Of a DNA stretch of 64,000 nucleotides, positions 51,480-63,056 are shown in pieces. Under the pieces are notes generated by a model, which saw only the letters and a program-made list of their open reading frames with translations, was not told where the DNA came from and did no database searches. A program made the position numbers and the translations under genes. Position 1 is the first letter of the stretch. Every line of letters begins with the position of its first letter. Source of the stretch: Anaerolineae bacterium (GTDB lineage Bacteria > Chloroflexota > Anaerolineae > B4-G1 > SLSP01); NCBI GenBank assembly GCA_025454475.1, contig JALOOJ010000014.1, forward strand, positions 179 to 64,178, given 5' to 3'.

Positions 51480-52691
51480 CTATGGCGTTTCGACTGGGAT
51501 GATGATCCCTTCCGAGACCCGTAACGTGGTCGTACGTTTCCGGAAGCTGTCCGGGAACAACTCGGCATCCGTCGTCGCCAGGATAGTTTGCTCGACATTA
51601 CCCAGCAGGTCCAGTAGGTAGTTGCGCCGAGCTCGATCGAGCTCAGCGAGGACCTCATCAAGGAGCAGGACCGGCGATTCCCCCGTGGTCTGCTCTAGCC
51701 AACGTAGTTCGGCCAGGTGCAGGGCCAGTACCGAGGTGCGCTGCTGACCACGCGAGCCAAAGGTCCCCATATCGCGTTCATTGGAGATGAAGCGCATCTC
51801 GTCGCGGTGGGGACCGACCAAGGTCATTCCCCTGTCGATTTCCTGGGCGCGTTTGCGCGCGAGCGCTTCGCGGTACGCGGTATAAAGCGCTTCCACATCC
51901 AGGGTTCGCTCCTCCGCATCCTCGGGTAGTAGCCCCATCTGATCGGCTGCAGGGGGCCGTACGGGGTCGAAGTTGGGCTCATATTGTAGCCTGAGCCAGG
52001 CTTGTCCACCGGTCAACTCCCGATGCAGTCGATCGATATGTATGGTGAGCTCGCGGATCACCTGCTGGCGATAGAGTGAGACCGTGACGCCGGTTCGGAC
52101 AATGCGCTCCTCCAGAGGAGCCAGCTGCATCGGATCTCCCCCATGCCGGCGCAGGTGCCGCAGCAGGGCATTCCGTCGCGAGACTGCGTGACGATAGGCA
52201 TCATAGACCTCGACATAGGTTGGATAGACCTGTGAGAGCAAGTTGTCGAGGTAGGCGCGTCGCCCCACCGGCGGGCCGTGGACGAGCGCAAGGTCCTCAG
52301 GCAAGAAGAGCACGACGTTGAGATGGCCGGCGAGGTTTGACCGCCGAATGGGTCGCTGGTCGATACGCACGCTCTTCTGCATGCGCTGGTGGCCATTGGA
52401 TAATGGCTTCCGCTCGATGGCGACCTCCAGCGTCTCCGTGCAATCGCGCCGCACGACCTCGGCCCTCACGTGTGAGAAGGGGAGACTGGCCTCCTCAGCG
52501 CCCCAATGGATGACTTGTTGGTCCACGCTGGTAAGGGGAGAGGCGCCGATGGCGAGAAACGCGATCGCCTCGAGCAAGCTGGTCTTTCCCTGCGCATTTG
52601 CTCCCAGGAGCAGAATGGGGCCAGCGGGCAGATCCAGCTCCAGGCGGTTGTACGTGCGGAATTGCCGCAGGCTAAGGCTTCGGATACGCAT
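51480..52691 (-). CDS. recF: DNA replication and repair protein RecF
   Basis: MRIRSLSLRQFRTY, Walker A GANAQGKTSLLEAI, signature and Walker B LLLDEVLAELD. Confidence 0.85.
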   Translation of the reverse strand: MRIRSLSLRQFRTYNRLELDLPAGPILLLGANAQGKTSLLEAIAFLAIGASPLTSVDQQVIHWGAEEASLPFSHVRAEVVRRDCTETLEVAIERKPLSNGHQRMQKSVRIDQRPIRRSNLAGHLNVVLFLPEDLALVHGPPVGRRAYLDNLLSQVYPTYVEVYDAYRHAVSRRNALLRHLRRHGGDPMQLAPLEERIVRTGVTVSLYRQQVIRELTIHIDRLHRELTGGQAWLRLQYEPNFDPVRPPAADQMGLLPEDAEERTLDVEALYTAYREALARKRAQEIDRGMTLVGPHRDEMRFISNERDMGTFGSRGQQRTSVLALHLAELRWLEQTTGESPVLLLDEVLAELDRARRNYLLDLLGNVEQTILATTDAELFPDSFRKRTTTLRVSEGIIIPVETP

Positions 52692-52825: not shown

Positions 52826-55399
52826 ATGCGACCAAAGCCGATTCGCACGTTTTCCATTGTCCCATCGTTGCCCGAGCCGTTGCTGCCACTCTGGCGCCTG
52901 GCCTACAATCTGCGCTGGGCTTGGAAGCACGATGCTATTGAGCTTTTTATCCGATTGGACAGTGAGTTATGGGAGCGGACGAACCACAATCCTGTTCGTA
53001 TGCTCGGGATGGTCAGCCAGGAGCGGTTGGAGAAGCTAGCTACCGACGTTGGGTTTCTGGCGCACCTCGAGCGGGCAACGGCGTACCTGGACGACTATAC
53101 GGGCCAGACGGAGTCTTCGTGGTACAGCCGGACGTATGGCAAGAAGGGCTCGGCGCCCATCGCCTATTTCTCGCTTGAGTTCGGACTGACTGAGTCGCTC
53201 ACTATTTTCGCCGGGGGCCTCGGCGTGCTTGCTGGCGACCACCTCAAGTCATCGAGTGACCTCAACGTTCCGCTGGTGGGGGTGGGCCTGCTGTATCAGC
53301 AGGGCTACTTCCAGCAGTATCTGAACCAGGCCGGATGGCAGCAGGAAGCCTATGAGGACAACCACTTCGACAATCTGCCCCTGACCCTTGAGCGGTTGCC
53401 CAACGGCGATCCTCTGACCGTGGACGTTCAGTTCCCTGGACACAAGGTGTTCGCCCAGGTATGGCGGGCCCAAGTTGGGCGCATCCCCCTCTACTTGCTG
53501 GATACCAACACGGCACTTAATAGCCGCCCGCAGGATCGTGACATTACCGATCAGCTCTATGGAGGGGACCAGGATCTGCGGATCAAGCAAGAGATCCTCC
53601 TGGGGATTGGCGGCTATCGGGCATTGCAGGCGCTGGGCCTGGCGCCGGTTGTCTATCATATGAACGAGGGGCACTCGGCTTTTCTGGCCCTGGAACACAT
53701 CCGAAGGCTAATGGTCGATCACAACCTCACTTTTGCCGCGGCACGCGAGGCAGCCTCGGCGAGTTGTGTGTTTACCACGCACACGCCGGTGCCAGCGGGT
53801 CACGATCGCTTCCCAGCCCCCCTGATGCAGCACTACTTCAACGATTATGCTACGCGTGAGTTGTCCTTGGGCTGGAATGACTTTATGGAACTGGGGCGCG
53901 AGAACCGTTTTGACGCCAATGAACCTTTCTGCATGACTGTTCTGGCTATCAAGTTGTCATCGTACACTAACGGCGTGAGCGCTCTCCACGGTGAGGTGTC
54001 GCAGGAGATGTGGCAGAATCTGTGGCCCGGGGTGCCACAGCAAGAGATCCCGATCTCGCATGTCACGAATGGGGTCCATATCCTCTCCTGGATCTCTCGA
54101 GATATGAAGGTGCTTTACGACCGCTATCTCGGCCCGCGGTGGCGTGAGGAGCCTGGTGATCGGGAGGTGTGGCGGCTGGCCAGGGATATCCCGGCCGATG
54201 AGCTATGGCGCACGCACGAGCGCCGCCGAGAGCTGCTCGTGGGCGTGACTCGGCAGCGCTTGCATCGACAGTTGGAGCAGCGCGGCGCACTGCCCAGCGA
54301 CATCCGTGCGGCTGACGAAGTCCTCGATCCAGAAGCCCTAACCATCGGGTTGGCGCGTCGTTTTGCGACGTACAAACGCGCCACACTGATCATGCGGGAC
54401 CCGGATCGCCTCGACCGCATCCTCAATGACCCCCAGCGTCCGGTTCAGATCATCTTCTCCGGAAAAGCACATCCCCGTGACGACCCCGGCAAGGCGATGA
54501 TTCAGCAGATCGTGGCCCTGAGCCGGGAGGATCGCTTCCGCAACCGTATCGTCTTTCTTGAGGACTATGACATGATCGTGGCCCGTTATCTGGTCCAGGG
54601 CTGCGACGTCTGGTTGAACACGCCCAGCCGACCAAGAGAGGCGAGTGGCACCAGTGGCATGAAGGCTGCCGCCAATGGCGTGCTGAATATCAGCACGCTG
54701 GATGGTTGGTGGGCTGAGGCCTACCGCCGTGAGGTGGGTTGGGCTATCGGCCGGGGTGAGACGTACAACGATGCCGAATACCAGGATCGCCTCGAGGCAG
54801 CGGCGCTCTATGATCTTCTGGAACGCGACGTCATCCCTATGTTCTACGACCACGAAGGGCGCGTCCCGCGCCGTTGGGCCGAGCAGATGAAGGCCAGTAT
54901 TGCGGACCTTTCCTACTTCTTTAACACCAACCGGATGGTGGCGGAGTACACGGATAGATTCTACGTCCCCTTGGCGGCGCGATATCGCAGCCTTGCCGAG
55001 GACGAGTTCGCGGGGGCAAAGGATCTTGCGGCCTGGCGTGAGAGGGTTCTACGCGACTGGTCGCAGATCCGCGTGAATTCGGTCAACGGCGATCTGCCGG
55101 TCCAGATCCATGTGGGGCGAACGTTTACAGCACACGCCGAAATCTACCTTGGTACCCTGCAGCCAGAGGACGTATGCGTCGAGCTCTATATCGGATTGGT
55201 CAATCCAAGTGGCGAACTGGTTCGGGGACGCCCGGTCACGATGCAGGTCAGTGAGAAACTCGACGGGCAGCGGTATCTCTATGCGGCGGACGCTGAGTGC
55301 GCGATGAGCGGCCTGCACGGGTATACGGTGCGGGTCTTGCCCTATCACGAGGACCTGGTGACCCTATTCCAGCCCGGGATGATACGTTGGGCCGGCTAA
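52826..55399 (+). CDS. glgP: alpha-glucan phosphorylase, second paralog (GlgP-like with ~150-aa C-terminal extension)
   Basis: Same motif set as 3388-5562 (WKHDAIELF...NPV, GGLGVLAGDH, EGHSAF, TTHTPVPAGHD, GKAHPRDDPGK, ASGTSGMKAAANG). Start at Met 52826 preceded by AGGAGG. Confidence 0.85.
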   Translation: MRPKPIRTFSIVPSLPEPLLPLWRLAYNLRWAWKHDAIELFIRLDSELWERTNHNPVRMLGMVSQERLEKLATDVGFLAHLERATAYLDDYTGQTESSWYSRTYGKKGSAPIAYFSLEFGLTESLTIFAGGLGVLAGDHLKSSSDLNVPLVGVGLLYQQGYFQQYLNQAGWQQEAYEDNHFDNLPLTLERLPNGDPLTVDVQFPGHKVFAQVWRAQVGRIPLYLLDTNTALNSRPQDRDITDQLYGGDQDLRIKQEILLGIGGYRALQALGLAPVVYHMNEGHSAFLALEHIRRLMVDHNLTFAAAREAASASCVFTTHTPVPAGHDRFPAPLMQHYFNDYATRELSLGWNDFMELGRENRFDANEPFCMTVLAIKLSSYTNGVSALHGEVSQEMWQNLWPGVPQQEIPISHVTNGVHILSWISRDMKVLYDRYLGPRWREEPGDREVWRLARDIPADELWRTHERRRELLVGVTRQRLHRQLEQRGALPSDIRAADEVLDPEALTIGLARRFATYKRATLIMRDPDRLDRILNDPQRPVQIIFSGKAHPRDDPGKAMIQQIVALSREDRFRNRIVFLEDYDMIVARYLVQGCDVWLNTPSRPREASGTSGMKAAANGVLNISTLDGWWAEAYRREVGWAIGRGETYNDAEYQDRLEAAALYDLLERDVIPMFYDHEGRVPRRWAEQMKASIADLSYFFNTNRMVAEYTDRFYVPLAARYRSLAEDEFAGAKDLAAWRERVLRDWSQIRVNSVNGDLPVQIHVGRTFTAHAEIYLGTLQPEDVCVELYIGLVNPSGELVRGRPVTMQVSEKLDGQRYLYAADAECAMSGLHGYTVRVLPYHEDLVTLFQPGMIRWAG

Positions 55400-56281
55400 G
55401 CTGACCTCAAGAACGCGATCCCTCCCCTCCAGATCCTGATGTATCTGGAGGTGGGTGGCTTGATGCCCACGTCGTGTGAATATTCGCTGAGCCAGCTCCA
55501 TCACGGCGCTGGCTTGCTGCTCACCAATCTCCGTTAACAGACATCCCCCGGGCGCCAGTCGCGTTGCCGCTTGTCGCAACAGCCGCTCAATGGCATCTAG
55601 TCCCTCCGGCCCAGAGATCAGAGCCGCACGAGGCTCATGCCGGACCGAGCACGGAAGGTCCTGCCATTCTGCCTCGGCGATGTAGGGCGGATTGCTGACA
55701 ATCAAGTCCACGGGCGCGGCGAACGGTGTCAGCAGATCGGTCTGTACCCACGCCAGGCGCTCCGCCACGCTGTTGCGCTGCGCGTTCGCTCGGGCCACTG
55801 CCAGTGCTGCAGCCGAGATGTCCGCGGCCCAAATACGCGACGAAGGCACTGCCGCCGCTAGTGCCACCGCGATACACCCGGACCCAGTGCCAACGTCGAC
55901 CACGCGCTGCGCGCGCTGTACCCCGGAGTGGTGCCATGCTGAGAGCCGGGGCAGTGCCAGCTCCACCAGCAGCTCCGTTTCGGGACGTGGGATCAGAACC
56001 GCCGGCGTAACACCGAACTCCAGCCCGAAGAACTCGACGAATCCCAGGATGTACGGTAACGGGACGCCGGTAGCTCGGCGTTGCACTGCATCCGTGAAGC
56101 GATCGACTTGGGCTGGTGCGAGCGGCCATTCGGGGTGAGCCAGAACTGCGGTCCGCTCAAGGTGCAGTATCCAGGCAAGCAGGCGCTCTGCCTCATTGTG
56201 AGGACGATCGGTTGTTCGCTGAAGTTGGACGACTGCCCACTGCAGCGCCTCGCGAATTGCGAGCAGGCTTGGCGATGTCAC
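55364..56281 (-). CDS. prmC: release factor glutamine N5-methyltransferase PrmC (HemK)
   Basis: VDVGTGSGCIAVALA SAM motif, NPPY catalytic motif (IVSNPPYI). Start placed at GTG 56281 downstream of the upstream gene's stop; the longer ORF is excluded. Confidence 0.7.
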   Translation of the reverse strand: MTSPSLLAIREALQWAVVQLQRTTDRPHNEAERLLAWILHLERTAVLAHPEWPLAPAQVDRFTDAVQRRATGVPLPYILGFVEFFGLEFGVTPAVLIPRPETELLVELALPRLSAWHHSGVQRAQRVVDVGTGSGCIAVALAAAVPSSRIWAADISAAALAVARANAQRNSVAERLAWVQTDLLTPFAAPVDLIVSNPPYIAEAEWQDLPCSVRHEPRAALISGPEGLDAIERLLRQAATRLAPGGCLLTEIGEQQASAVMELAQRIFTRRGHQATHLQIHQDLEGRDRVLEVSLAGPTYHPGLE

Positions 56282-56310
56282 GGCCGGCGCGGTGTTCCCT
56301 AAGCCGAGGT

Positions 56311-56994
56311 CTACTCGTTGCGGAAGCGGGCCTCGAGTTTCTCCAGCAGTTCTGCGGCTTCGACCAGCTTGTCGAGCGGGTTCTGCTTGCCCGTGAAATA
56401 GCGGTAATCGCAAGGCATAATATCCAGCTTTGTTACCAGCGTCTCGTGGTGTTTTCTGATGGTTTCTGCTGAGCTCTCGTAGGTATTGACGAGCTCTTCC
56501 AGCGAAACGTCGTGTAGGTTCACCTTGCGTACGGTGTAGTCCAATGCGGCGGCCCAAGCTTCGGGCTTGGGGATGGCGAGCGGTTCTTCGCCCAGGCTTA
56601 TACGGAACTCCACCCACATCTGGATCGCCGCACCCGTTAGGTCGATGGGTAGATGCGAGGCAGTCATCTTCTCGGTGAGCTGGTTCTCAACTGGGTCCAT
56701 CCCACTGGCAAAGAGCTGCTCGATGCGACTGGCTACCTTCGACTCGGGCTCGAGTCTGAGGTAGTTGGCCAGTGCTCTCAGAGCCCGGTCGAAGTCTCCC
56801 GAGCGCGACAGCACCTGCGCCAGGCGCATCTGGTAGGCCGCGTTGTCCGGATGCAACGCTACGACTGCTTCCAGTCCCCGCACTGCATCCTCAACATCCC
56901 AGCGCTCGTATGCCGCAAGTGCCTTGTCGTAAAGTGTCTGGGCTTTGCGCCGTTTGACCGCTGCTGACTGATCTGGACTCATCGCGACCTCCAT
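56311..56994 (-). CDS. TPR-repeat protein
   Basis: Helical TPR-like repeats (AAYERWDVEDAVRGLEAVVALHPDNAAYQMRLAQVLSRSGDFDRALRALANYLRLEP). Confidence 0.6.
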   Translation of the reverse strand: MEVAMSPDQSAAVKRRKAQTLYDKALAAYERWDVEDAVRGLEAVVALHPDNAAYQMRLAQVLSRSGDFDRALRALANYLRLEPESKVASRIEQLFASGMDPVENQLTEKMTASHLPIDLTGAAIQMWVEFRISLGEEPLAIPKPEAWAAALDYTVRKVNLHDVSLEELVNTYESSAETIRKHHETLVTKLDIMPCDYRYFTGKQNPLDKLVEAAELLEKLEARFRNE

Positions 56995-57109
56995 AGGTGA
57001 TCACGCCGTATGCATGTCCATTATAGCATTGACGGCAGGTCTGCAAACAGAGCGTAAGATTTCGGTATGCGCACGCGGATGCGCTGCTCCAGACGCTGGG
57101 GAGAGCGCG

Positions 57110-59326
57110 TCACCACCAATGCTCGGACGCTACTTCGACACCCCAGGAGTCCAGCAACGCCATAACCTCACTCCAGTGTGCTTCGTTGACGATCGCCAGG
57201 CTTTCCAGACCGGGCAGAGGGCGCAGCCAGCGATGCAGGGCTGGGTCCGCAGCGCGCAGTTCGGCCAACGCCTCGTTGCGTTTGAGGTGGAGCAAGCGTA
57301 CCTGGGAAGTCTGGCCGTCGCCAAAGTGCTTGCCCCACGCTTTGACAAGTTTTTCCAAGCCGTCTGGGGGAGGCGCACCGGTTAGCATCTTCAGGCGGGC
57401 AATCACCTCAAGCGGGGGAGTGCCCAACGCTGCTGCCGCCTGAATAGACTGTGGGGTGAGGCGCCAACGGTTTCCGTGCGGTTCAGCGAACCGGGCCAAG
57501 GCGGCGCTTACATAGAGGCTGGGCAGTGCGGTGCGCGACTCCAGCTCACCATCACGCCACCGCATACTGTTTGGGAGGTCGGCTTGAGCTCCATGCGATA
57601 CTGCTGGGAGTAGTTCGTGTGCCTGGAGGCGCTGTCGGACCAGATCGGTGTCCTCCGGTACGAACCATGCGGAACGATCGTCAATGCGATGAAGATGCTG
57701 GCCAAGTTGAGGATCATCCAACAGCGCGGTCAGGCGTTCCCCACTATCGACTTGCAGGATCCTTGCGCTGCGCCGGACAGTGATCCGCTCATACTGCCGA
57801 TACCACTCCTCAAGCGAGCGGTGGATGTTTTGGGGGATCGGCTGGCCTGTGGTTTCTTCCAGGTATGCCAGTATGGTCGGCACTGTCTCGCCCGCTCGCA
57901 GCGCGCGGTAGATCGATTCGCGGTTGAGCCGGTACGTGACGACGCTCTCATCGATCTTCTCGCGGTGCGCGACTTGCTCGATACCGGCCAGAACACGCAA
58001 CGGGATGGGGCCTAATGCCAGAACTTGGAAATCGGGTTGCAGGATCACTTGCCAGGGCTGGTCCTGATGGCTTGGTACGGTCTGTCCAAGGGTCTGATCC
58101 GTGCGTAGCGCCACCAGATCCTTCGAGTCGGCCTCGCTGTACCCTAGCTCGACCAGTCCCATGGCACACAACTCCTCCAGTGCGCGCTGGACCCATGCTC
58201 GCTCTATCCCCTTCAGATTGGCCTCCACCTCGCGTTGATAGGCGCTGCCATACCAGCGATATTGGTCATAAACAACGGCCAGGATGTTGTCATCGAGGAC
58301 AAGGCCGCCCGCTTGGTCGCCTGTCAGCAGGCTCAGGAGGGTGGAGAAGGACCACCAGCCGGGAGCGGAGGCCTGTACAAGCGTAGCCAGGATCTGACTG
58401 CGCACGTCGCTGGGTGCGCGTAGGTCAAATCCCTGGAGATGCCCGGTCAGGCGAGAGGTCGCGCGATCGCTAGAAAGCGGCGATGACATGCGGGCATACG
58501 CTTGGCGCAGATCGCGTTGATATTGGGAGGTCTTCGCTCCCCAGAACAACGTGACAGCTTGGCCCTCAACCGCCGTGACCTCAGTGGGGGATTCGGTAAC
58601 CAGATTCAGCGCGGCGAGCACGTGGCAGAGCCACGCGACCTTCTCCAGCCCATCGGGTTCTTCGAGCGCCAGCGCCGCGCACAGTCGGCGTCTATCGCGT
58701 TTCCCGATGTCTCCTGTCTTGAGGCGCTGGGCGGGCTGATCTCGGAGGTGAGCCCACACGAAGAGGAGCTCGCGCAGGAATGCCTGCAGATCGCGTGACA
58801 CGACGTGATGCGGTGTCACGCTGCGTGCCAAGACCTGGCCCAGATCCGGCTGCGGTTCAGACAGCAGAGCGGTTGGAAGTAGACTGCGGACTTCTTCCGG
58901 GATGCCAAAGCGGCTCATCAGCGACAACGTCCGGCCGTCAGAGCTGCTGATTGGTGGGGTCACGTTCACGATCAGGCCCTTGCGCAACAGGTCGGACAAG
59001 ATGTCTCGGGTCCGCGGCCGGCGAGAAGCCTCGGGTTGGCCCTCGATATGCACCAGCCCGGCTAGCATCAGGGGGCGGGCCACGGTGGCAAGTGTGGTAG
59101 GTTCCGCGCAGTTGATCAAGATTGCCAACGCCGCCCGCTCGGTGTCGCTCAGCGCCTGGATGAATGCTTCCGAACGTGCCATCTTGGGGATGAGTCTGCC
59201 AAGCTCGGTGACTAGCCATCCCTTTCGCGGAGGAAAACGATCTGACTTGAGCGCGAGCTGATCGGCGATTTCCTGCAGTGCATTGATGTGGTAAGACTGC
59301 AGCGTGGCTTCCAGTTGTGGGACCAC
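57110..59326 (-). CDS. large uncharacterised XPB-operon protein B (738 aa), paralogous to the 639-aa neighbour
   Basis: Shares N-terminal (..L..L..LGL....R..LV..L...DP....E..V..LSEEE-like) and C-terminal (LKxxWxxxxG...VRLLHLKRNEALAELRA) modules with the ORF at 59328-61247. 1-2 nt spacing between operon genes. Confidence 0.55.
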   Translation of the reverse strand: MVPQLEATLQSYHINALQEIADQLALKSDRFPPRKGWLVTELGRLIPKMARSEAFIQALSDTERAALAILINCAEPTTLATVARPLMLAGLVHIEGQPEASRRPRTRDILSDLLRKGLIVNVTPPISSSDGRTLSLMSRFGIPEEVRSLLPTALLSEPQPDLGQVLARSVTPHHVVSRDLQAFLRELLFVWAHLRDQPAQRLKTGDIGKRDRRRLCAALALEEPDGLEKVAWLCHVLAALNLVTESPTEVTAVEGQAVTLFWGAKTSQYQRDLRQAYARMSSPLSSDRATSRLTGHLQGFDLRAPSDVRSQILATLVQASAPGWWSFSTLLSLLTGDQAGGLVLDDNILAVVYDQYRWYGSAYQREVEANLKGIERAWVQRALEELCAMGLVELGYSEADSKDLVALRTDQTLGQTVPSHQDQPWQVILQPDFQVLALGPIPLRVLAGIEQVAHREKIDESVVTYRLNRESIYRALRAGETVPTILAYLEETTGQPIPQNIHRSLEEWYRQYERITVRRSARILQVDSGERLTALLDDPQLGQHLHRIDDRSAWFVPEDTDLVRQRLQAHELLPAVSHGAQADLPNSMRWRDGELESRTALPSLYVSAALARFAEPHGNRWRLTPQSIQAAAALGTPPLEVIARLKMLTGAPPPDGLEKLVKAWGKHFGDGQTSQVRLLHLKRNEALAELRAADPALHRWLRPLPGLESLAIVNEAHWSEVMALLDSWGVEVASEHWW

Positions 59327-59327
59327 G

Positions 59328-61247
59328 TTAGGCTTCCTTAGGCATATAGCCCTGCCGGGTTAGGTTGCTGAGAAGTGGGTCAACACTCTCTTCGTCAAGC
59401 AGTACCGTTTCAGGGGTCAGACTACCCAGAATTGACGACTGCAGACTGGGGAGGGCCACCTGCAGTTCATGCATGGTGACCGCATCGCGTGTCTGGAGCA
59501 GGGCTTGTGTCGGGTAGATGCGCACGTGTCCGTAGCGGAGCCACCAGGCATCCCACCACTGCGCAATCTCGGGAAGCGGCTCGAAACCTGTGGCGGCCCT
59601 CCATGCAGCCTTGAGTGCGTCGGGATGCATGCCGTGCTCAAAGGCTCTGTGAAGCCGCTGAACGTCCAGTCGATAGCGCACCAATGTGCGTGAGAAACCC
59701 GCCGGCACCGCCCATTGGAGCACAAACGTCACGAGATCCGGTGGAAGGGGGGCCTCGATCTCCAGGATGGACTCCGCCATAACGAACCGCAGGGTCTCTT
59801 GTCGCAGTTCACCAACGGCGTCCAACATGACCTCCATGCTTCGCCTCCAGTGGAGGTCCTGGAATCGCTGGAGGCGTATACTCTTGACGGTGTTCAGAGA
59901 CGGCCCTACATCCGCAAGGCCGAAAGCATGCAGTGGGCCAGTGACCATACGCAGGAGGGCCGTCTCCAGAAAGTCCGTCCAGCCTCCCTTGGGGCCCTTG
60001 GGTATGACTCCTATCAGATACTGATGGGTGTCCGGCGTTGGGAAGAGCGCGGTGAGCCACTCCATCAGATCGCTGACAGCAAGCCAGGTGCCGTGTGGGA
60101 GGCAGGCGAGCAACTCAAGTAAGACTCCCCGCAGATCGACGACGCTGCTTCTGATGGCGTCGTCGATAGAATTGAGCCCCCAATACCCGTGGTAGAGTTG
60201 GGTGATGGTAATCTGCTGCTCACGCCATAGAGGCCACCACTCCGACCACGTTGTGATGCTGCACCAGAGGTGATAGAGCGCACCCAGTTGGTTCCCCGGA
60301 GTCAAGGCTAACCACTGCTGCGCTAAGGCGCTGTCGATCGTGATCGGGCTGCCGCTCAGAATGATGCCGCTGTATAGGAGTAACGCGTAAATAAGCTCCG
60401 CCCGCTCCGGCGTGCAACCCAGTACGTGGGTCCACTCATTGAGCGTTTCGGCATCGAGGTCTGGGTCTGGTGGCAGTAACTCTATTCTGCCCTCCAAGGC
60501 GGGCCTGGCAATGATCTTCTGGGCATCGGCTGGGACCGGGGGCCAACAGATGATGGGCTGCGCAAACGGATAGGGTGGCGCTTTCCACCTGAGTCGAGCC
60601 CTGAGCTTCGCAGGTTCGGACTGCAGGACGCTGATCAGCTGCTGGACCTGTGTGAGGATTTCCCGCGGGTTGGACGGCACAACCTTACGCGGCGCCGAAC
60701 TGGCACGGAAGGGTATCTGCAGCTGTGGGAGTCTCCGGCGCAGTGCCGCTGGCAGATACAGCTGCCCGTCTTCGGTCACTAGCGCTAGCCCGGCTTTGCG
60801 GATGCGTTGCGCGAGTCTGGGCCACGGCGTCGTGAAGTCATACCACAACGCTCTTCCCTGGGGTACCGTGTGATAGGCTTGGATGAAGCTCTGCACGACC
60901 AGGGTGCCGTAATATCTGAGCTCTTCTTCAGAGAGATCGTCCACGCACTGCTCTAGGCGTTGGGGATCGAGGAAGCACTCGGCTAACTGCTGCGCCACCA
61001 GTTGCCGCGTTCCCCCTTCGGGCGGAAGCCCAAGGGCGGTGAGAAGGTCACGAAGTTGGGACAGCCGCCAGCCGGATTCCAGCAGCTCCTGCACCATATG
61101 GGTGACGGGGTCGACGAGTCCCGCCGACCAAGCGGGAGGGGCCGACAATGGGGTTGGCGACGTTGGGAACTCCCACAGATAGCCCAATTCCGAGCTCGGC
61201 GTCGCGTCCTCTCTGCTAGATTTCGCGCTCGAGGGCTTCTTGCTCAT
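59328..61247 (-). CDS. large uncharacterised XPB-operon protein A (639 aa), paralogous to the 738-aa neighbour
   Basis: Overlaps the XPB stop by 4 nt. Trp/Leu-rich helical protein with no recognisable catalytic motif. Confidence 0.55.
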   Translation of the reverse strand: MSKKPSSAKSSREDATPSSELGYLWEFPTSPTPLSAPPAWSAGLVDPVTHMVQELLESGWRLSQLRDLLTALGLPPEGGTRQLVAQQLAECFLDPQRLEQCVDDLSEEELRYYGTLVVQSFIQAYHTVPQGRALWYDFTTPWPRLAQRIRKAGLALVTEDGQLYLPAALRRRLPQLQIPFRASSAPRKVVPSNPREILTQVQQLISVLQSEPAKLRARLRWKAPPYPFAQPIICWPPVPADAQKIIARPALEGRIELLPPDPDLDAETLNEWTHVLGCTPERAELIYALLLYSGIILSGSPITIDSALAQQWLALTPGNQLGALYHLWCSITTWSEWWPLWREQQITITQLYHGYWGLNSIDDAIRSSVVDLRGVLLELLACLPHGTWLAVSDLMEWLTALFPTPDTHQYLIGVIPKGPKGGWTDFLETALLRMVTGPLHAFGLADVGPSLNTVKSIRLQRFQDLHWRRSMEVMLDAVGELRQETLRFVMAESILEIEAPLPPDLVTFVLQWAVPAGFSRTLVRYRLDVQRLHRAFEHGMHPDALKAAWRAATGFEPLPEIAQWWDAWWLRYGHVRIYPTQALLQTRDAVTMHELQVALPSLQSSILGSLTPETVLLDEESVDPLLSNLTRQGYMPKEA

Positions 61248-63019
61248 CTGCTGTCGATTCGTGGAACGCCGGGAATGGCTCGCTGCTGCGTGTGAGGCAG
61301 AGCCCCGGGGATCTCCTCCCCATAGAGGATCAGATACCGATAGCCTTGCTCGGTGAGGAAGCGTTGACGGTTGGCGCTGAAGTCCTGATCCACGGTCTCT
61401 TTGGTGACGATGGAGTAGAAGTAGGCCTGACCACCGTCAGGCTTGGGGCGCAGAATGCGACCGAGGCGCTGGGCTTCCTCCTGGCGCGAGCCGAAGGTTC
61501 CCGAGATCTGGATCGCAACATTGGCGTCCGGCAGGTCGATGGAGAAGTTGGCGACCTTGGAGACCACGAGTGTGGTGATCTCACCGTTGCGGAACTTCTC
61601 GTAGAGCTCCTCACGTTCGGACACCTTGGTCTTGCCGGTGATGATAGGATAGCCATAGTGCGAGGAGATCTGTTCTAGCTGTTCCAGGTACATCCCAATG
61701 ATGAGGACCCGATCGCCTTTATGATACGTGAGCAGCCGGTCGAGGATGTCGAGCTTGACCGTGGCATCGGCTGCTACACGGTACCTAAGTCGTTGCTCCG
61801 CCATAATGTAGCCTATGCGCTCCGCCTCCGACATCGTCACGCGGATTTCATAGCAGATGGCAGGTGCGATCCATCCTTGTCGTTCCAGATCGTGCCACGG
61901 CACATCGTACTTCTTGGGACCGATTAGCGAGAAGACGTCCTCTTCCCGCTGATCCTCTCGAACCAAGGTCGCCGTCAACCCAAGGCGGCGGCGCGCCTGA
62001 AGCTCGGCGGTGATGCGGAAGACGGGCGCGGGCAGAAGGTGCACCTCGTCGTAAATAATGAGCCCCCAGTCGCCCTCGTTGAAGAGCGCGAAGTGCGGGT
62101 ACTGTTCGGACAGCGGAAGGTGGTCGCCGGCCTTGGTGCCCCGCTTGCGATGCGTGAGGATCTGGTACGTGGTCACCGTGACCGGGCGGATCTCCTTGCG
62201 CTCCCCGGTGTATTCGCCGATCGAGTCCTCGGTAAGCGAGGTCTTGCTGAGCAGTTCCTCGCGCCATTGGCGGGCCGCGACGGTGCTGGGCGTGAGGATC
62301 AGTGTGTTCATTTGAATCTGCGCCATCGCTACCATGCCTACGATCGTCTTCCCGGCGCCGCAGGGAAGGACGATAACTCCTGCCCCACCGGCATCCGAGC
62401 CATGGGCCCAGAAGATGCCTGCAGCATCGCGTTGATACTCGCGGACGACAAACGGGCCGTCGTTCAGCGATAGGGCGCGAAGCTGGAGTGCCAATGGTTT
62501 GCCTGCGAGATAGCCGACCAGATCCTCGGCGGGATAGCCGGCCTTGAGCAGGGCCTGCTTCACATGGCCGCGTCGCGAGGCGGGTACCTGGAATGTGTGG
62601 GGCCCAAGGCGGTCCAGCACGTAGGGTTTGAGGTGGCGGTTATTCTCTAACTCGATGAGCAGTAGCGGCTCGTCTGATGTGAGTCGCAGTCGCTCCGGGT
62701 CATAGGGGTCGCGCGTGAGCCGCACCCTACCGTACCTGCCTATCGCGTCACGTATTTCGAAGACAACGTTTTCAGGCAGGGGATACTTGGCGAAGTTCTG
62801 CAGCCCGGCGATGATCTCCTCGGCGTCGAGGCCAGCGGCTGCGGCGTTCCACAGCGAGAGCGATGAGATGCGATACGTGTGGATGTACTCCGGGCTCTTC
62901 TCCAGCTCGGCGAACCTCGCCAGATGGTCTCGCGCGGCTTCGTAGTCAGAGCTGTTCACCTCCAGGAGGACTGTGCGGTCACCCTGGACGATAAGTGGCG
63001 CGTCGATTCGAAAATCCAT
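61244..63019 (-). CDS. xpb: XPB/ERCC3/Ssl2-type SF2 DNA helicase (bacterial XPB)
   Basis: N-terminal damage-recognition-like domain, motif I VLPCGAGKT, motif II IYDEVHLL, XPB-specific RED motif in LTATLVREDQRE, motif V/VI (SKVANFSIDLPDANVAIQ, QEEAQRLGRILR). Confidence 0.85.
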   Translation of the reverse strand: MDFRIDAPLIVQGDRTVLLEVNSSDYEAARDHLARFAELEKSPEYIHTYRISSLSLWNAAAAGLDAEEIIAGLQNFAKYPLPENVVFEIRDAIGRYGRVRLTRDPYDPERLRLTSDEPLLLIELENNRHLKPYVLDRLGPHTFQVPASRRGHVKQALLKAGYPAEDLVGYLAGKPLALQLRALSLNDGPFVVREYQRDAAGIFWAHGSDAGGAGVIVLPCGAGKTIVGMVAMAQIQMNTLILTPSTVAARQWREELLSKTSLTEDSIGEYTGERKEIRPVTVTTYQILTHRKRGTKAGDHLPLSEQYPHFALFNEGDWGLIIYDEVHLLPAPVFRITAELQARRRLGLTATLVREDQREEDVFSLIGPKKYDVPWHDLERQGWIAPAICYEIRVTMSEAERIGYIMAEQRLRYRVAADATVKLDILDRLLTYHKGDRVLIIGMYLEQLEQISSHYGYPIITGKTKVSEREELYEKFRNGEITTLVVSKVANFSIDLPDANVAIQISGTFGSRQEEAQRLGRILRPKPDGGQAYFYSIVTKETVDQDFSANRQRFLTEQGYRYLILYGEEIPGALPHTQQRAIPGVPRIDSR

Positions 63020-63028
63020 AACCTAGCC

Positions 63029-63056
63029 ATTCTACCCGACCAGGATGCTTAGTCAA
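63029..63056 (-). promoter_or_regulatory. promoter of the XPB operon on the minus strand (-35 TTGACT = + coords 63051-63056, 16-nt spacer, -10 TAGAAT = 63029-63034); start codon 63017-63019 lies 9 nt after the -10, so near-leaderless
   Basis: Consensus hexamers read on the reverse complement. Confidence 0.55.

What the first reader, a model, noticed from the sequence alone, without database searches (positions are those of the whole stretch)
57110..61247. The two XPB-operon partner proteins are paralogs of each other (tandem duplication)
Both start with a similar ~80-aa helical module (L..L..LGL....R.LV..L....DP....E..V..LSEEE-type in A; INALQEIADQLAL...GWLVTELGRLIPKMARSEAFIQALSDTER in B). 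Both end with a related module (A: LKAAWRAATGFEPLPEIAQWWDAWWLRYGHVRIYPTQALLQTRDAVTMHELQVALPSLQ; B: LKMLTGAPPPDGLEKLVKAWGKHFGDGQTSQVRLLHLKRNEALAELRAADPALHRWL). The middle regions diverge. This suggests a heterodimeric partner for XPB built from duplicated subunits.
Basis: seen in the sequence. Interest (0 to 1): 0.6.

Follow-up and report, generated by a model that had tools for sequence, protein, structure and literature searches.

The report
Two p52-like partners of bacterial XPB
The two genes after the XPB DNA-repair helicase gene in this Chloroflexota genome are ancient duplicates of each other, and the better-modelled one looks like p52/Tfb2, the protein that holds and activates XPB in the eukaryotic factor TFIIH.

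Summary
Protein A (59328-61247, 639 aa) and protein B (57110-59326, 738 aa) are homologous over the whole length of A. Profile-profile alignment gives A51-637 ~ B4-575, probability 99.9%, E=4e-36. The N-terminal, middle and C-terminal parts are each significant on their own.

Two corrections apply. The collinear counterpart of A's C-terminal module is B residues 420-580. The middle regions are also still homologous.

The module is the XPB N-terminal domain fold (Pfam PF13625), so the operon carries four copies: one in XPB, one in A, two in B.

A confident AlphaFold model of B matches only TFIIH p52/Tfb2 as its top 21 PDB hits (E down to 3e-9).

The order XPB-A-B is kept in every testable Chloroflexota locus (69/69 and 60/60). 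Four other phyla have a single B-like partner.

The duplication is therefore ancient and retained. A heteromeric XPB-A-B complex built on paired domains, as in XPB-p52-p8, is the likely mechanism but was not tested. I found no paper describing bacterial p52 homologues.

The parts
61244..63019 (-). XPB helicase gene (591 aa), first gene of the operon.
   Evidence: NCBIfam NF045503 'DNA repair helicase XPB', 842 bits against a cutoff of 610. Pfam finds ERCC3_RAD25_C, ResIII, Helicase_C, and PF13625 at residues 9-138.
62465..63019 (-). XPB N-terminal domain (aa 1-185). This is copy 1 of the PF13625 module.
   Evidence: hhalign against B420-580 E=1.2e-16, against A478-639 E=1.5e-14, against B581-738 E=1.1e-9.
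59328..61247 (-). Protein A (639 aa), p52-like paralogue with one C-terminal module. Sources that name it or its close homologues call them 'hypothetical protein'.
   Evidence: hhalign A51-637 ~ B4-575, E=4.1e-36. All 7 family members hit PF13625 below the Pfam threshold, best E=2.3e-6. An A orthologue lies upstream of B in 69/69 loci with room.
60738..61115 (-). A N-terminal helical module (aa 45-170), beginning with a possible SAP/helix-extension-helix-like motif.
   Evidence: hhalign against B1-120 E=9e-11. Helices with pLDDT 76-88. Weak SAP hit, E=0.14.
59817..60737 (-). A middle region (aa 171-477).
   Evidence: hhalign against B121-419 E=4.8e-17.
59331..59816 (-). A C-terminal XPB-NTD-like module (aa 478-639). 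This is copy 2 of the module.
   Evidence: hhalign against B420-580 E=4.6e-19, against B581-738 E=2.7e-13, against the XPB NTD E=1.5e-14.
57110..59326 (-). Protein B (738 aa), p52/Tfb2-like protein with two C-terminal modules. NCBI calls it 'helicase-associated domain-containing protein'.
   Evidence: PF13625, 99.8 bits, at residues 427-544. AlphaFold model pLDDT 84.3. Foldseek top 21 PDB hits are all p52/Tfb2, E=2.9e-9 to 7e-5. Pfam Tfb2 is hit weakly by 15 of 20 family members, best E=1.7e-4.
58967..59326 (-). B N-terminal helical module (aa 1-120).
   Evidence: hhalign against A45-170 E=9e-11. Helices H4-88 in the model.
58070..58966 (-). B middle region (aa 121-419) with winged-helix-like units.
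   Evidence: hhalign against the A middle region E=4.8e-17. Helix and strand order in the model fits winged-helix units. The B-family profile over residues 379-497 matches Chaetomium p52 residues 191-327, E=0.0022.
57587..58069 (-). B module 1 (aa 420-580). This is copy 3 of the module and the equivalent of the p52 'clutch' plus the following beta-alpha-beta-beta-alpha unit.
   Evidence: PF13625 at 427-544. Yeast Tfb2 residues 310-406 align to B399-496. hhalign against the XPB NTD E=1.2e-16.
57113..57586 (-). B module 2 (aa 581-738).
   Evidence: hhalign B420-580 vs B581-738 E=5.5e-19. The order of strands and helices is the same as in module 1.
61244..61247 (-). ATGA overlap of the XPB stop codon with the A start codon.
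   Evidence: Sequence read directly.
59324..59330 (-). A stop codon TAA, one base, then the B start codon GTG. An AAGGAAG Shine-Dalgarno-like motif lies just upstream.
   Evidence: Sequence read directly.
63029..63056 (-). Promoter-like site (TTGACT, 16 bases, TAGAAT) just upstream of XPB.
   Evidence: Consensus scan, 10 of 12 matches. This is a pattern match only.

Best explanation
XPB, A and B form one operon.

Shown:
- A and B are ancient paralogues, homologous over the whole length of A.
- Both belong to the bacterial family of XPB-linked 'helicase-associated domain' proteins.
- B has the fold and domain order of TFIIH p52/Tfb2: winged-helix units, then a 'clutch' domain with the XPB N-terminal domain fold, then a small alpha/beta unit.
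- A has that architecture once. B repeats the last module.
- The operon therefore encodes four copies of the XPB-NTD-like module.

Inferred:
- As in TFIIH, these modules pair with each other as pseudo-symmetric dimers. In TFIIH the XPB NTD pairs with the p52 clutch, and the p52 C-terminal domain pairs with p8.
- A and B would thereby assemble on XPB, hold its second RecA lobe, stabilise it and tune its ATPase/translocase.
- Their N-terminal helical and winged-helix parts would contact DNA or other factors.
- The likely cellular role is DNA repair or another DNA-opening task, not phage defence.
For: Paralogy: hhalign E=4.6e-14 and E=4.1e-36 with deeper alignments. The N-terminal, middle and C-terminal parts are each significant.

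Similarity to p52: the B model has pLDDT 84.3. Its top 21 PDB hits by Foldseek are all p52/Tfb2, with about 350-590 aligned columns, followed by XPB chains. Sequence matches to yeast Tfb2 (E=0.014) and Chaetomium p52 (E=0.0022) are weak. Pfam Tfb2 is hit weakly by 15 of 20 B members.

Module identity: the XPB NTD matches B420-580, A478-639 and B581-738 with E=1e-16, 1.5e-14 and 1e-9.

Operon: the ATGA overlap and the 1-base gap with an SD-like motif. A promoter-like site lies only upstream of XPB and after B.

Conservation: A lies upstream of B in 69/69 loci and XPB upstream of A in 60/60 loci with room. In three further loci (one Ktedonobacteria genome, two other assemblies) the A-like/B-like pair stays together with overlapping genes, next to recO, and XPB is not adjacent.

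A B-like partner sits beside or near XPB in Deinococcota, Actinomycetota, Cyanobacteriota and Bacillota.

Template for the mechanism: Greber et al. 2019 (PMC6422496) describe the XPB NTD/p52 clutch pseudo-symmetric dimer and the p52 CTD-p8 dimer cradling RecA2. He et al. 2020 (PMC7672443) report that human XPB is insoluble without p52 and p8.
Against:
- The A model is poor (pLDDT 55.2). Its two best PDB hits are Tfb2 and p52 but are not significant (E=0.23 and 0.25). A's likeness to p52 therefore rests on its homology to B.
- Pfam Tfb2 and NCBIfam tfb2 scores are far below their thresholds.
- TM-scores to p52 are low (0.2-0.37). This is expected for flexible multi-domain chains, but it means the relative domain arrangement is not reproduced.
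- The equivalence of the small beta-alpha-beta-beta-alpha unit to the p52 CTD/p8 fold rests on secondary-structure order and my recollection of that fold. No Pfam match supports it.
- In the three loci with an A-like/B-like pair next to recO, no XPB gene lies in the fetched flanks. A and B could therefore also act without XPB.
Confidence: 0.75

Rival explanations
1. A and B are two alternative XPB partners. Each would form its own XPB complex, for example for different DNA substrates or conditions, instead of one XPB-A-B assembly.
For: Other phyla manage with a single B-like partner. Some Chloroflexota loci have a third ~600-aa paralogue (L079, L080), which suggests an expandable set of partners.
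Against: The three genes appear translationally coupled. A and B co-occur in every testable locus. They stay adjacent, with overlapping genes, where XPB is not adjacent. Four modules could pair as two dimers in a single complex.
Confidence: 0.2
2. The similarity only reflects a shared mobile domain (PF13625) in two otherwise unrelated proteins, not duplication of a whole gene.
For: BLASTP and Pfam detect similarity only within the PF13625 region.
Against: Sub-alignments that exclude the module are significant on their own: N-terminal E=9e-11, middle E=4.8e-17. The full alignment is collinear over about 515 columns.
Confidence: 0.02
3. A is a decaying, functionless copy of B.
For: A evolves faster and falls below the Pfam threshold (22.6 bits against 34.2). 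Partners from other phyla score better against B than against A.
Against: An intact A reading frame is present in 69/69 loci, spanning several Chloroflexota lineages as named in the record titles. Many residues are invariant, including the C-terminal RQGYMPKE motif.
Confidence: 0.02
4. The A/B pair is an XPB-independent DNA-repair factor, or the operon is a phage-defence module.
For: Three loci have the A-like/B-like pair next to recO with no XPB in the flanks. XPB shows helicase-level similarity to PbeA in PADLOC.
Against: A and B have no PADLOC hits. By their sequences, the nearby open reading frames look like housekeeping genes (recF and infA read by eye, not tested). XPB is linked in 60/60 loci. 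XPB sits beside or near a B-like gene in four other phyla.
Confidence: 0.06

Closest known systems
TFIIH subunit p52 (yeast Tfb2) with p8/Tfb5, the XPB-anchoring and XPB-activating module of eukaryotes
   Same: B has the same fold and domain order. Its top 21 PDB hits are p52/Tfb2 chains. It has a clutch domain homologous to the XPB N-terminal domain. It is genetically tied to XPB.
   Different: - Sequence similarity is marginal and below the Pfam and NCBIfam thresholds.
- Here there are two paralogues, and three in some genomes.
- B repeats the clutch-containing module.
- There is an N-terminal helical module with a possible SAP-like motif.
- I saw no TFIIH core partners (p34, p44, p62) in the neighbourhoods examined. 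From general knowledge these are not bacterial proteins.
- No separate p8-like gene is present in this window.
Bacterial 'helicase-associated domain-containing protein' (PF13625 proteins beside XPB, as annotated by NCBI)
   Same: B is annotated with this name. Homologous single partners lie beside or near XPB in Deinococcus, Tsukamurella and Paenibacillus, and as an unnamed hypothetical protein in Gloeocapsopsis.
   Different: The name carries no function. A is not recognised as a member: the sources call it or its homologues hypothetical, and it scores below the Pfam threshold. The paired A/B arrangement was seen only in Chloroflexota among the genomes examined.
Bax1, the nuclease partner of archaeal XPB
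   Same: It is also encoded next to XPB and also modulates XPB (PMC13024598).
   Different: Bax1 is an XPG-related nuclease that binds the XPB thumb motif and HD2 domain. A and B show no nuclease domain in Pfam and instead carry XPB-NTD-like modules.

Membership tests
Pfam PF13625 (Helicase_C_3, the XPB/Ssl2 N-terminal domain fold) | Score above the Pfam gathering threshold (34.2 bits). | tested here: met
   B scores 99.8 bits at residues 427-544, with a second stretch also reported. XPB scores 116 bits.
Pfam PF13625 (Helicase_C_3), applied to protein A | Score above the Pfam gathering threshold (34.2 bits). | tested here: not met
   A scores 22.6 bits, E=1.2e-4. All 7 A-family members match below the threshold. 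Profile-profile comparison to the XPB NTD gives E=1.5e-14, so A is a divergent homologue and not a member by Pfam's rule.
TFIIH p52/Tfb2 (Pfam PF03849, NCBIfam TIGR00625) | Sequence score above the curated cutoffs. | tested here: not met
   B scores 13.7 bits against 34.5 for PF03849 and 10.5 bits against 320.7 for TIGR00625. 15 of 20 B-family members give weak hits, best E=1.7e-4.
TFIIH p52/Tfb2 | Overall fold and domain order: winged-helix units followed by the clutch domain. | tested here: met
   Foldseek of the pLDDT-84 model finds p52/Tfb2 as the top 21 PDB hits, E=2.9e-9 to 7e-5, with about 350-590 aligned columns. This applies to B only. The A model is too poor to test.
TFIIH p52/Tfb2 | C-terminal dimerisation domain that binds p8/Tfb5. 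| tested here: inconclusive
   A beta-alpha-beta-beta-alpha unit follows each clutch in B, at residues 522-569 and 676-727. There is no Pfam match and no p8-like gene in the window. A 115-aa protein homologous to this unit sits between XPB and the partner gene in Deinococcus aquaticus.
TFIIH p52/Tfb2 | Physical binding to the XPB N-terminal domain and stimulation of the XPB ATPase. | not testable with these tools
   Only genetic linkage was shown: 60/60 loci and apparent translational coupling.
DNA repair helicase XPB (NCBIfam NF045503) | Equivalog score of at least 610 bits. | tested here: met
   842.1 bits over residues 8-564.
Bax1 (archaeal XPB-associated nuclease) | A nuclease domain next to XPB. 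| tested here: not met
   Pfam and NCBIfam scans of A and B at E up to 1 list no nuclease or Bax1 family.
Known anti-phage defence systems (PADLOC) | A match to a PADLOC protein model. | tested here: not met
   A and B have no hits at E up to 0.01. XPB shows only helicase-core similarity to PbeA.

The most novel reading that the evidence does not exclude
Bacterial XPB, A and B form a minimal prokaryotic counterpart of the XPB-p52-p8 lobe of TFIIH. In it, the four XPB-NTD-like modules would pair as two pseudo-symmetric dimers. This would mean the XPB-p52 partnership predates, or was exchanged with, the eukaryotic lineage, and that p52 and p8 arose by the same kind of module duplication and splitting seen here and in Deinococcus.
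Probability: 0.35. Interest if true: 0.8.

Novelty: new variant of a known kind. Interest (0 to 1): 0.62.

Why it matters
Bacterial XPB has no established function or partner. [quoted passage not shown] A 2026 review still calls bacterial XPB function elusive (PMC13024598).

A conserved bacterial XPB operon with one, two or three p52-like subunits offers two things:
- A simple system that could be expressed in bacteria, for studying how clutch-type domain pairing controls XPB.
- A concrete way to test where the XPB-p52-p8 module of TFIIH came from.

It would also give a functional name to a family of at least several hundred sequence clusters that currently carry uninformative names.

Tried and rejected
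- BLASTP alone finds only the PF13625 segment, so it is inadequate for this question.
- The A structure model built from 7 sequences was poor (pLDDT 55.2) and its fold search was not significant. Deeper alignments from the fetched loci could not be submitted to the predictor.
- The XPB homologue search returned only close Anaerolineae relatives, so it gave no view of other phyla. tblastn against plasmid records was used for that instead.
- Cluster look-ups gave no organism names.
- Pfam scans of the small beta-alpha-beta-beta-alpha units found no Tfb5 or Tfb2_C match.
- Ten literature searches found no description of a bacterial p52-like XPB partner. The library lacks most subscription journals, so prior mention elsewhere cannot be excluded.
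- The defence-system reading was rejected.
- The domain-sharing-only reading was rejected.
Full report
**Anatomy**

Three genes lie head to tail on the minus strand:
- XPB, 61244-63019, 591 aa
- protein A, 59328-61247, 639 aa
- protein B, 57110-59326, 738 aa

The XPB stop codon and the A start codon overlap as ATGA. The A stop codon TAA is followed after one base by the B start codon GTG, with an AAGGAAG motif just upstream. A promoter-like site lies just upstream of XPB, and another lies only after B. I read this as one operon.

XPB is a clear orthologue: NCBIfam NF045503 scores 842 bits against a cutoff of 610. The source is an Anaerolineae (Chloroflexota) metagenome-assembled genome. A 100% identical copy of B is annotated 'helicase-associated domain-containing protein'. 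A and its close homologues are unnamed or 'hypothetical protein'.

**Checking the observation**

BLASTP of A against B finds only one segment, A499-586 ~ B439-526, E=2e-4. Pfam places PF13625 (Helicase_C_3, the XPB N-terminal domain) in B at 427-544 with 99.8 bits, and weakly in A at 497-595 with 22.6 bits, below the threshold.

Profile-profile comparison of family alignments gives a collinear match, A58-637 ~ B10-580, probability 98.2%, E=4.6e-14. I then took 73 A and 77 B sequences from 80 Chloroflexota loci. With these the match rose to A51-637 ~ B4-575, probability 99.9%, E=4.1e-36.

Each part is significant when cut out and tested alone:

| Comparison | E-value |
|---|---|
| N-terminal helical modules (A45-170 vs B1-120) | 9e-11 |
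| Middle regions | 4.8e-17 |
| A478-639 vs B420-580 | 4.6e-19 |
| A478-639 vs B581-738 | 2.7e-13 |

Two corrections apply:
- The collinear counterpart of A's C-terminal module is B's first module (420-580). B's C-terminus is a second copy of that module (B420-580 vs B581-738, E=5.5e-19).
- The middle regions have diverged in raw identity but are still homologous.

**What the proteins are**

The repeated module is homologous to the N-terminal 185 residues of the XPB encoded upstream. E-values are 1.2e-16 to B module 1, 1.5e-14 to A's module and 1.1e-9 to B module 2. The operon therefore holds four copies of this module.

The motif [YW]-R-[LI]-x(3)-[SR]-[IL]-x(2)-A-x(3)-G is visible in all four copies:
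- HTYRISSLSLWNAAAAG in XPB
- VRYRLDVQRLHRAFEHG in A
- VTYRLNRESIYRALRAG in B module 1
- NRWRLTPQSIQAAAALG in B module 2

The corresponding stretches of yeast Tfb2 and human XPB appear in the alignments.

An AlphaFold model of B is confident, with mean pLDDT 84.3. In a Foldseek search of the PDB, its top 21 hits are all TFIIH p52 or Tfb2 chains. E-values run from 2.9e-9 to 7e-5, probability is 1.00, and about 350-590 columns align. XPB chains follow, through their N-terminal domain.

Sequence searches agree but only weakly:
- B399-496 to yeast Tfb2 310-406, E=0.014
- the B-family profile to Chaetomium p52 191-327, E=0.0022
- Pfam Tfb2 hit by 15 of 20 B members, best E=1.7e-4, all below threshold

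In the model, each C-terminal module has the order strand-strand-helix-strand-strand-helix-helix-helix, followed by strand-helix-strand-strand-helix (426-569 and 588-727). Greber et al. 2019 describe the C-terminal region of p52 as a clutch domain that has the same fold as the XPB NTD and pairs with it as a pseudo-symmetric dimer, followed by a dimerisation module that binds p8 (PMC6422496). B module 1 fits that description. That the small strand-helix-strand-strand-helix unit equals the p52 CTD/p8 fold is my inference from topology and memory of that fold. Pfam gave no support for it.

The A model is poor (pLDDT 55.2). Its two best PDB hits are Tfb2 and p52 but are not significant. A's likeness to p52 therefore rests on its homology to B.

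**Conservation and distribution**

All 80 best genome hits to the B family are Chloroflexota by record title: Anaerolineae, Anaerolineales, Thermoflexales/Thermoflexia, Ardenticatenaceae, Caldilineaceae and others. An A orthologue lies directly upstream of B in 69 of 69 loci with room. XPB lies upstream of A in 60 of 60 loci with room.

In Tengunoibacter (Ktedonobacteria) and two other assemblies, an A orthologue and a B orthologue are adjacent with overlapping genes and are followed by recO. No XPB lies in the fetched flanks. HMM scores assign gene 1 to A and gene 2 to B. The duplication is therefore old within the phylum, and both copies are retained.

Two loci carry a third paralogue of about 600 aa with a single module (L079 and L080).

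Outside Chloroflexota, each record I examined has a single partner:
- Deinococcus aquaticus, 805 aa
- Tsukamurella tyrosinosolvens, 725 aa, about 3.5 kb from XPB
- Gloeocapsopsis dulcis, 624 aa, annotated hypothetical
- Paenibacillus cellulosilyticus, 657 aa, overlapping XPB

All four match the A/B profiles collinearly, and each scores better against B than against A.

The B family is sizeable. A full HMMER scan found 413 clusters (at 50% identity) at E up to 1e-30 and 1560 at E up to 1e-10.

**Mechanism**

Shown: the paralogy, the four-fold module, the p52-like fold of B, the operon structure and the strict co-occurrence.

Inferred: the modules pair as they do in TFIIH, so that A and B assemble on XPB and control its motor. 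In TFIIH, p52 and p8 recruit XPB and cradle its RecA2 lobe (PMC6422496). Human XPB is insoluble without them (PMC7672443).

The fact that A and B stay adjacent where XPB is not adjacent favours a direct A-B contact. Four modules would allow two pseudo-symmetric pairs in one particle.

The N-terminal helical module gives weak SAP and Rho_N hits. Together with the winged-helix units it could bind DNA.

The neighbourhood looks like housekeeping. The nearby open reading frames read as ribosomal protein S1, IF-1, RecF, a glycogen phosphorylase-like protein and a PrmC-like methyltransferase (assignments by eye, not tested). A and B have no PADLOC match. A role in DNA repair or DNA opening is therefore more likely than defence. 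The recO neighbour in three loci points the same way.

**Rivals**

- Domain sharing only is rejected by the sub-alignments that exclude the module.
- A decaying copy is rejected by intact A genes in 69 of 69 loci and by many invariant residues.
- Two alternative XPB complexes instead of one ternary complex remains open.
- An XPB-independent role for A and B cannot be excluded without whole-genome checks.

**Novelty**

[quoted passage not shown] A 2026 review calls bacterial XPB function elusive and names no bacterial partner (PMC13024598). Ten full-text searches found nothing on a bacterial p52-like partner.

The B family is already catalogued under an uninformative name, so the genes themselves are not new. 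What appears new is:
- the similarity to p52/Tfb2
- the recognition of A as a full-length paralogue
- the internal module duplication in B
- the conserved two-subunit arrangement in Chloroflexota

I rate it a new variant of a known kind, with interest 0.62. The paralogy itself is solid but modest. The value lies in the link to TFIIH.

Noticed in passing
L086:5550-5897 (Deinococcus aquaticus plasmid pDATS01, NZ_CP115166.1): A 115-aa 'hypothetical protein' sits between XPB and the 805-aa partner gene. Its residues 46-114 match the unit that follows the clutch in B (B-family profile positions 515-582, E about 1e-9). Its N-terminus has an AT-hook-like KRRGRPPK motif. It may be a stand-alone p8/Tfb5-like subunit.
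   Followed up: partly
L079:2158-3984 and L080:408-2315: Two Chloroflexota loci carry a third p52-like paralogue of about 600 aa with one C-terminal module. In L079 it lies between XPB and A. In L080 it lies upstream of XPB.
   Followed up: partly
L081:8001-14059, L082:8001-13942, L084:8001-14150: In Tengunoibacter tsumagoiensis and two other assemblies, the A-like and B-like genes overlap each other and are followed by recO. No XPB lies within the fetched flanks. I could not check whether XPB lies elsewhere in these genomes.
   Followed up: partly
window 51480-52691 (-): This 403-aa open reading frame begins MRIRSLSLRQFRTYNRLELDL, which looks like RecF, another DNA-repair gene about 4.4 kb from the operon. 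This was read by eye and not tested with a profile.
   Followed up: no
window 56311-56994 (-) and 57020-57047 (-): A 227-aa TPR-repeat protein follows B. It has its own promoter-like site (TTTGCA, 16 bases, TATAAT, with an upstream TG), so it is probably not part of the XPB operon. Its conservation next to B in other loci was not examined.
   Followed up: no
window 55364-56617 (-) versus 56311-56994 (-): The mechanically listed 417-aa reading frame with a PrmC/HemK-like methyltransferase C-terminal half overlaps the TPR gene by about 300 bases. Its true start is probably further downstream.
   Followed up: no
window 57110-57115 and 59331-59354 (-): Both paralogues have strongly conserved extreme C-termini of unknown role. 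B ends in WW, nearly invariant across the family. A ends in RQGYMPKE, invariant in the 7-sequence alignment.
   Followed up: no
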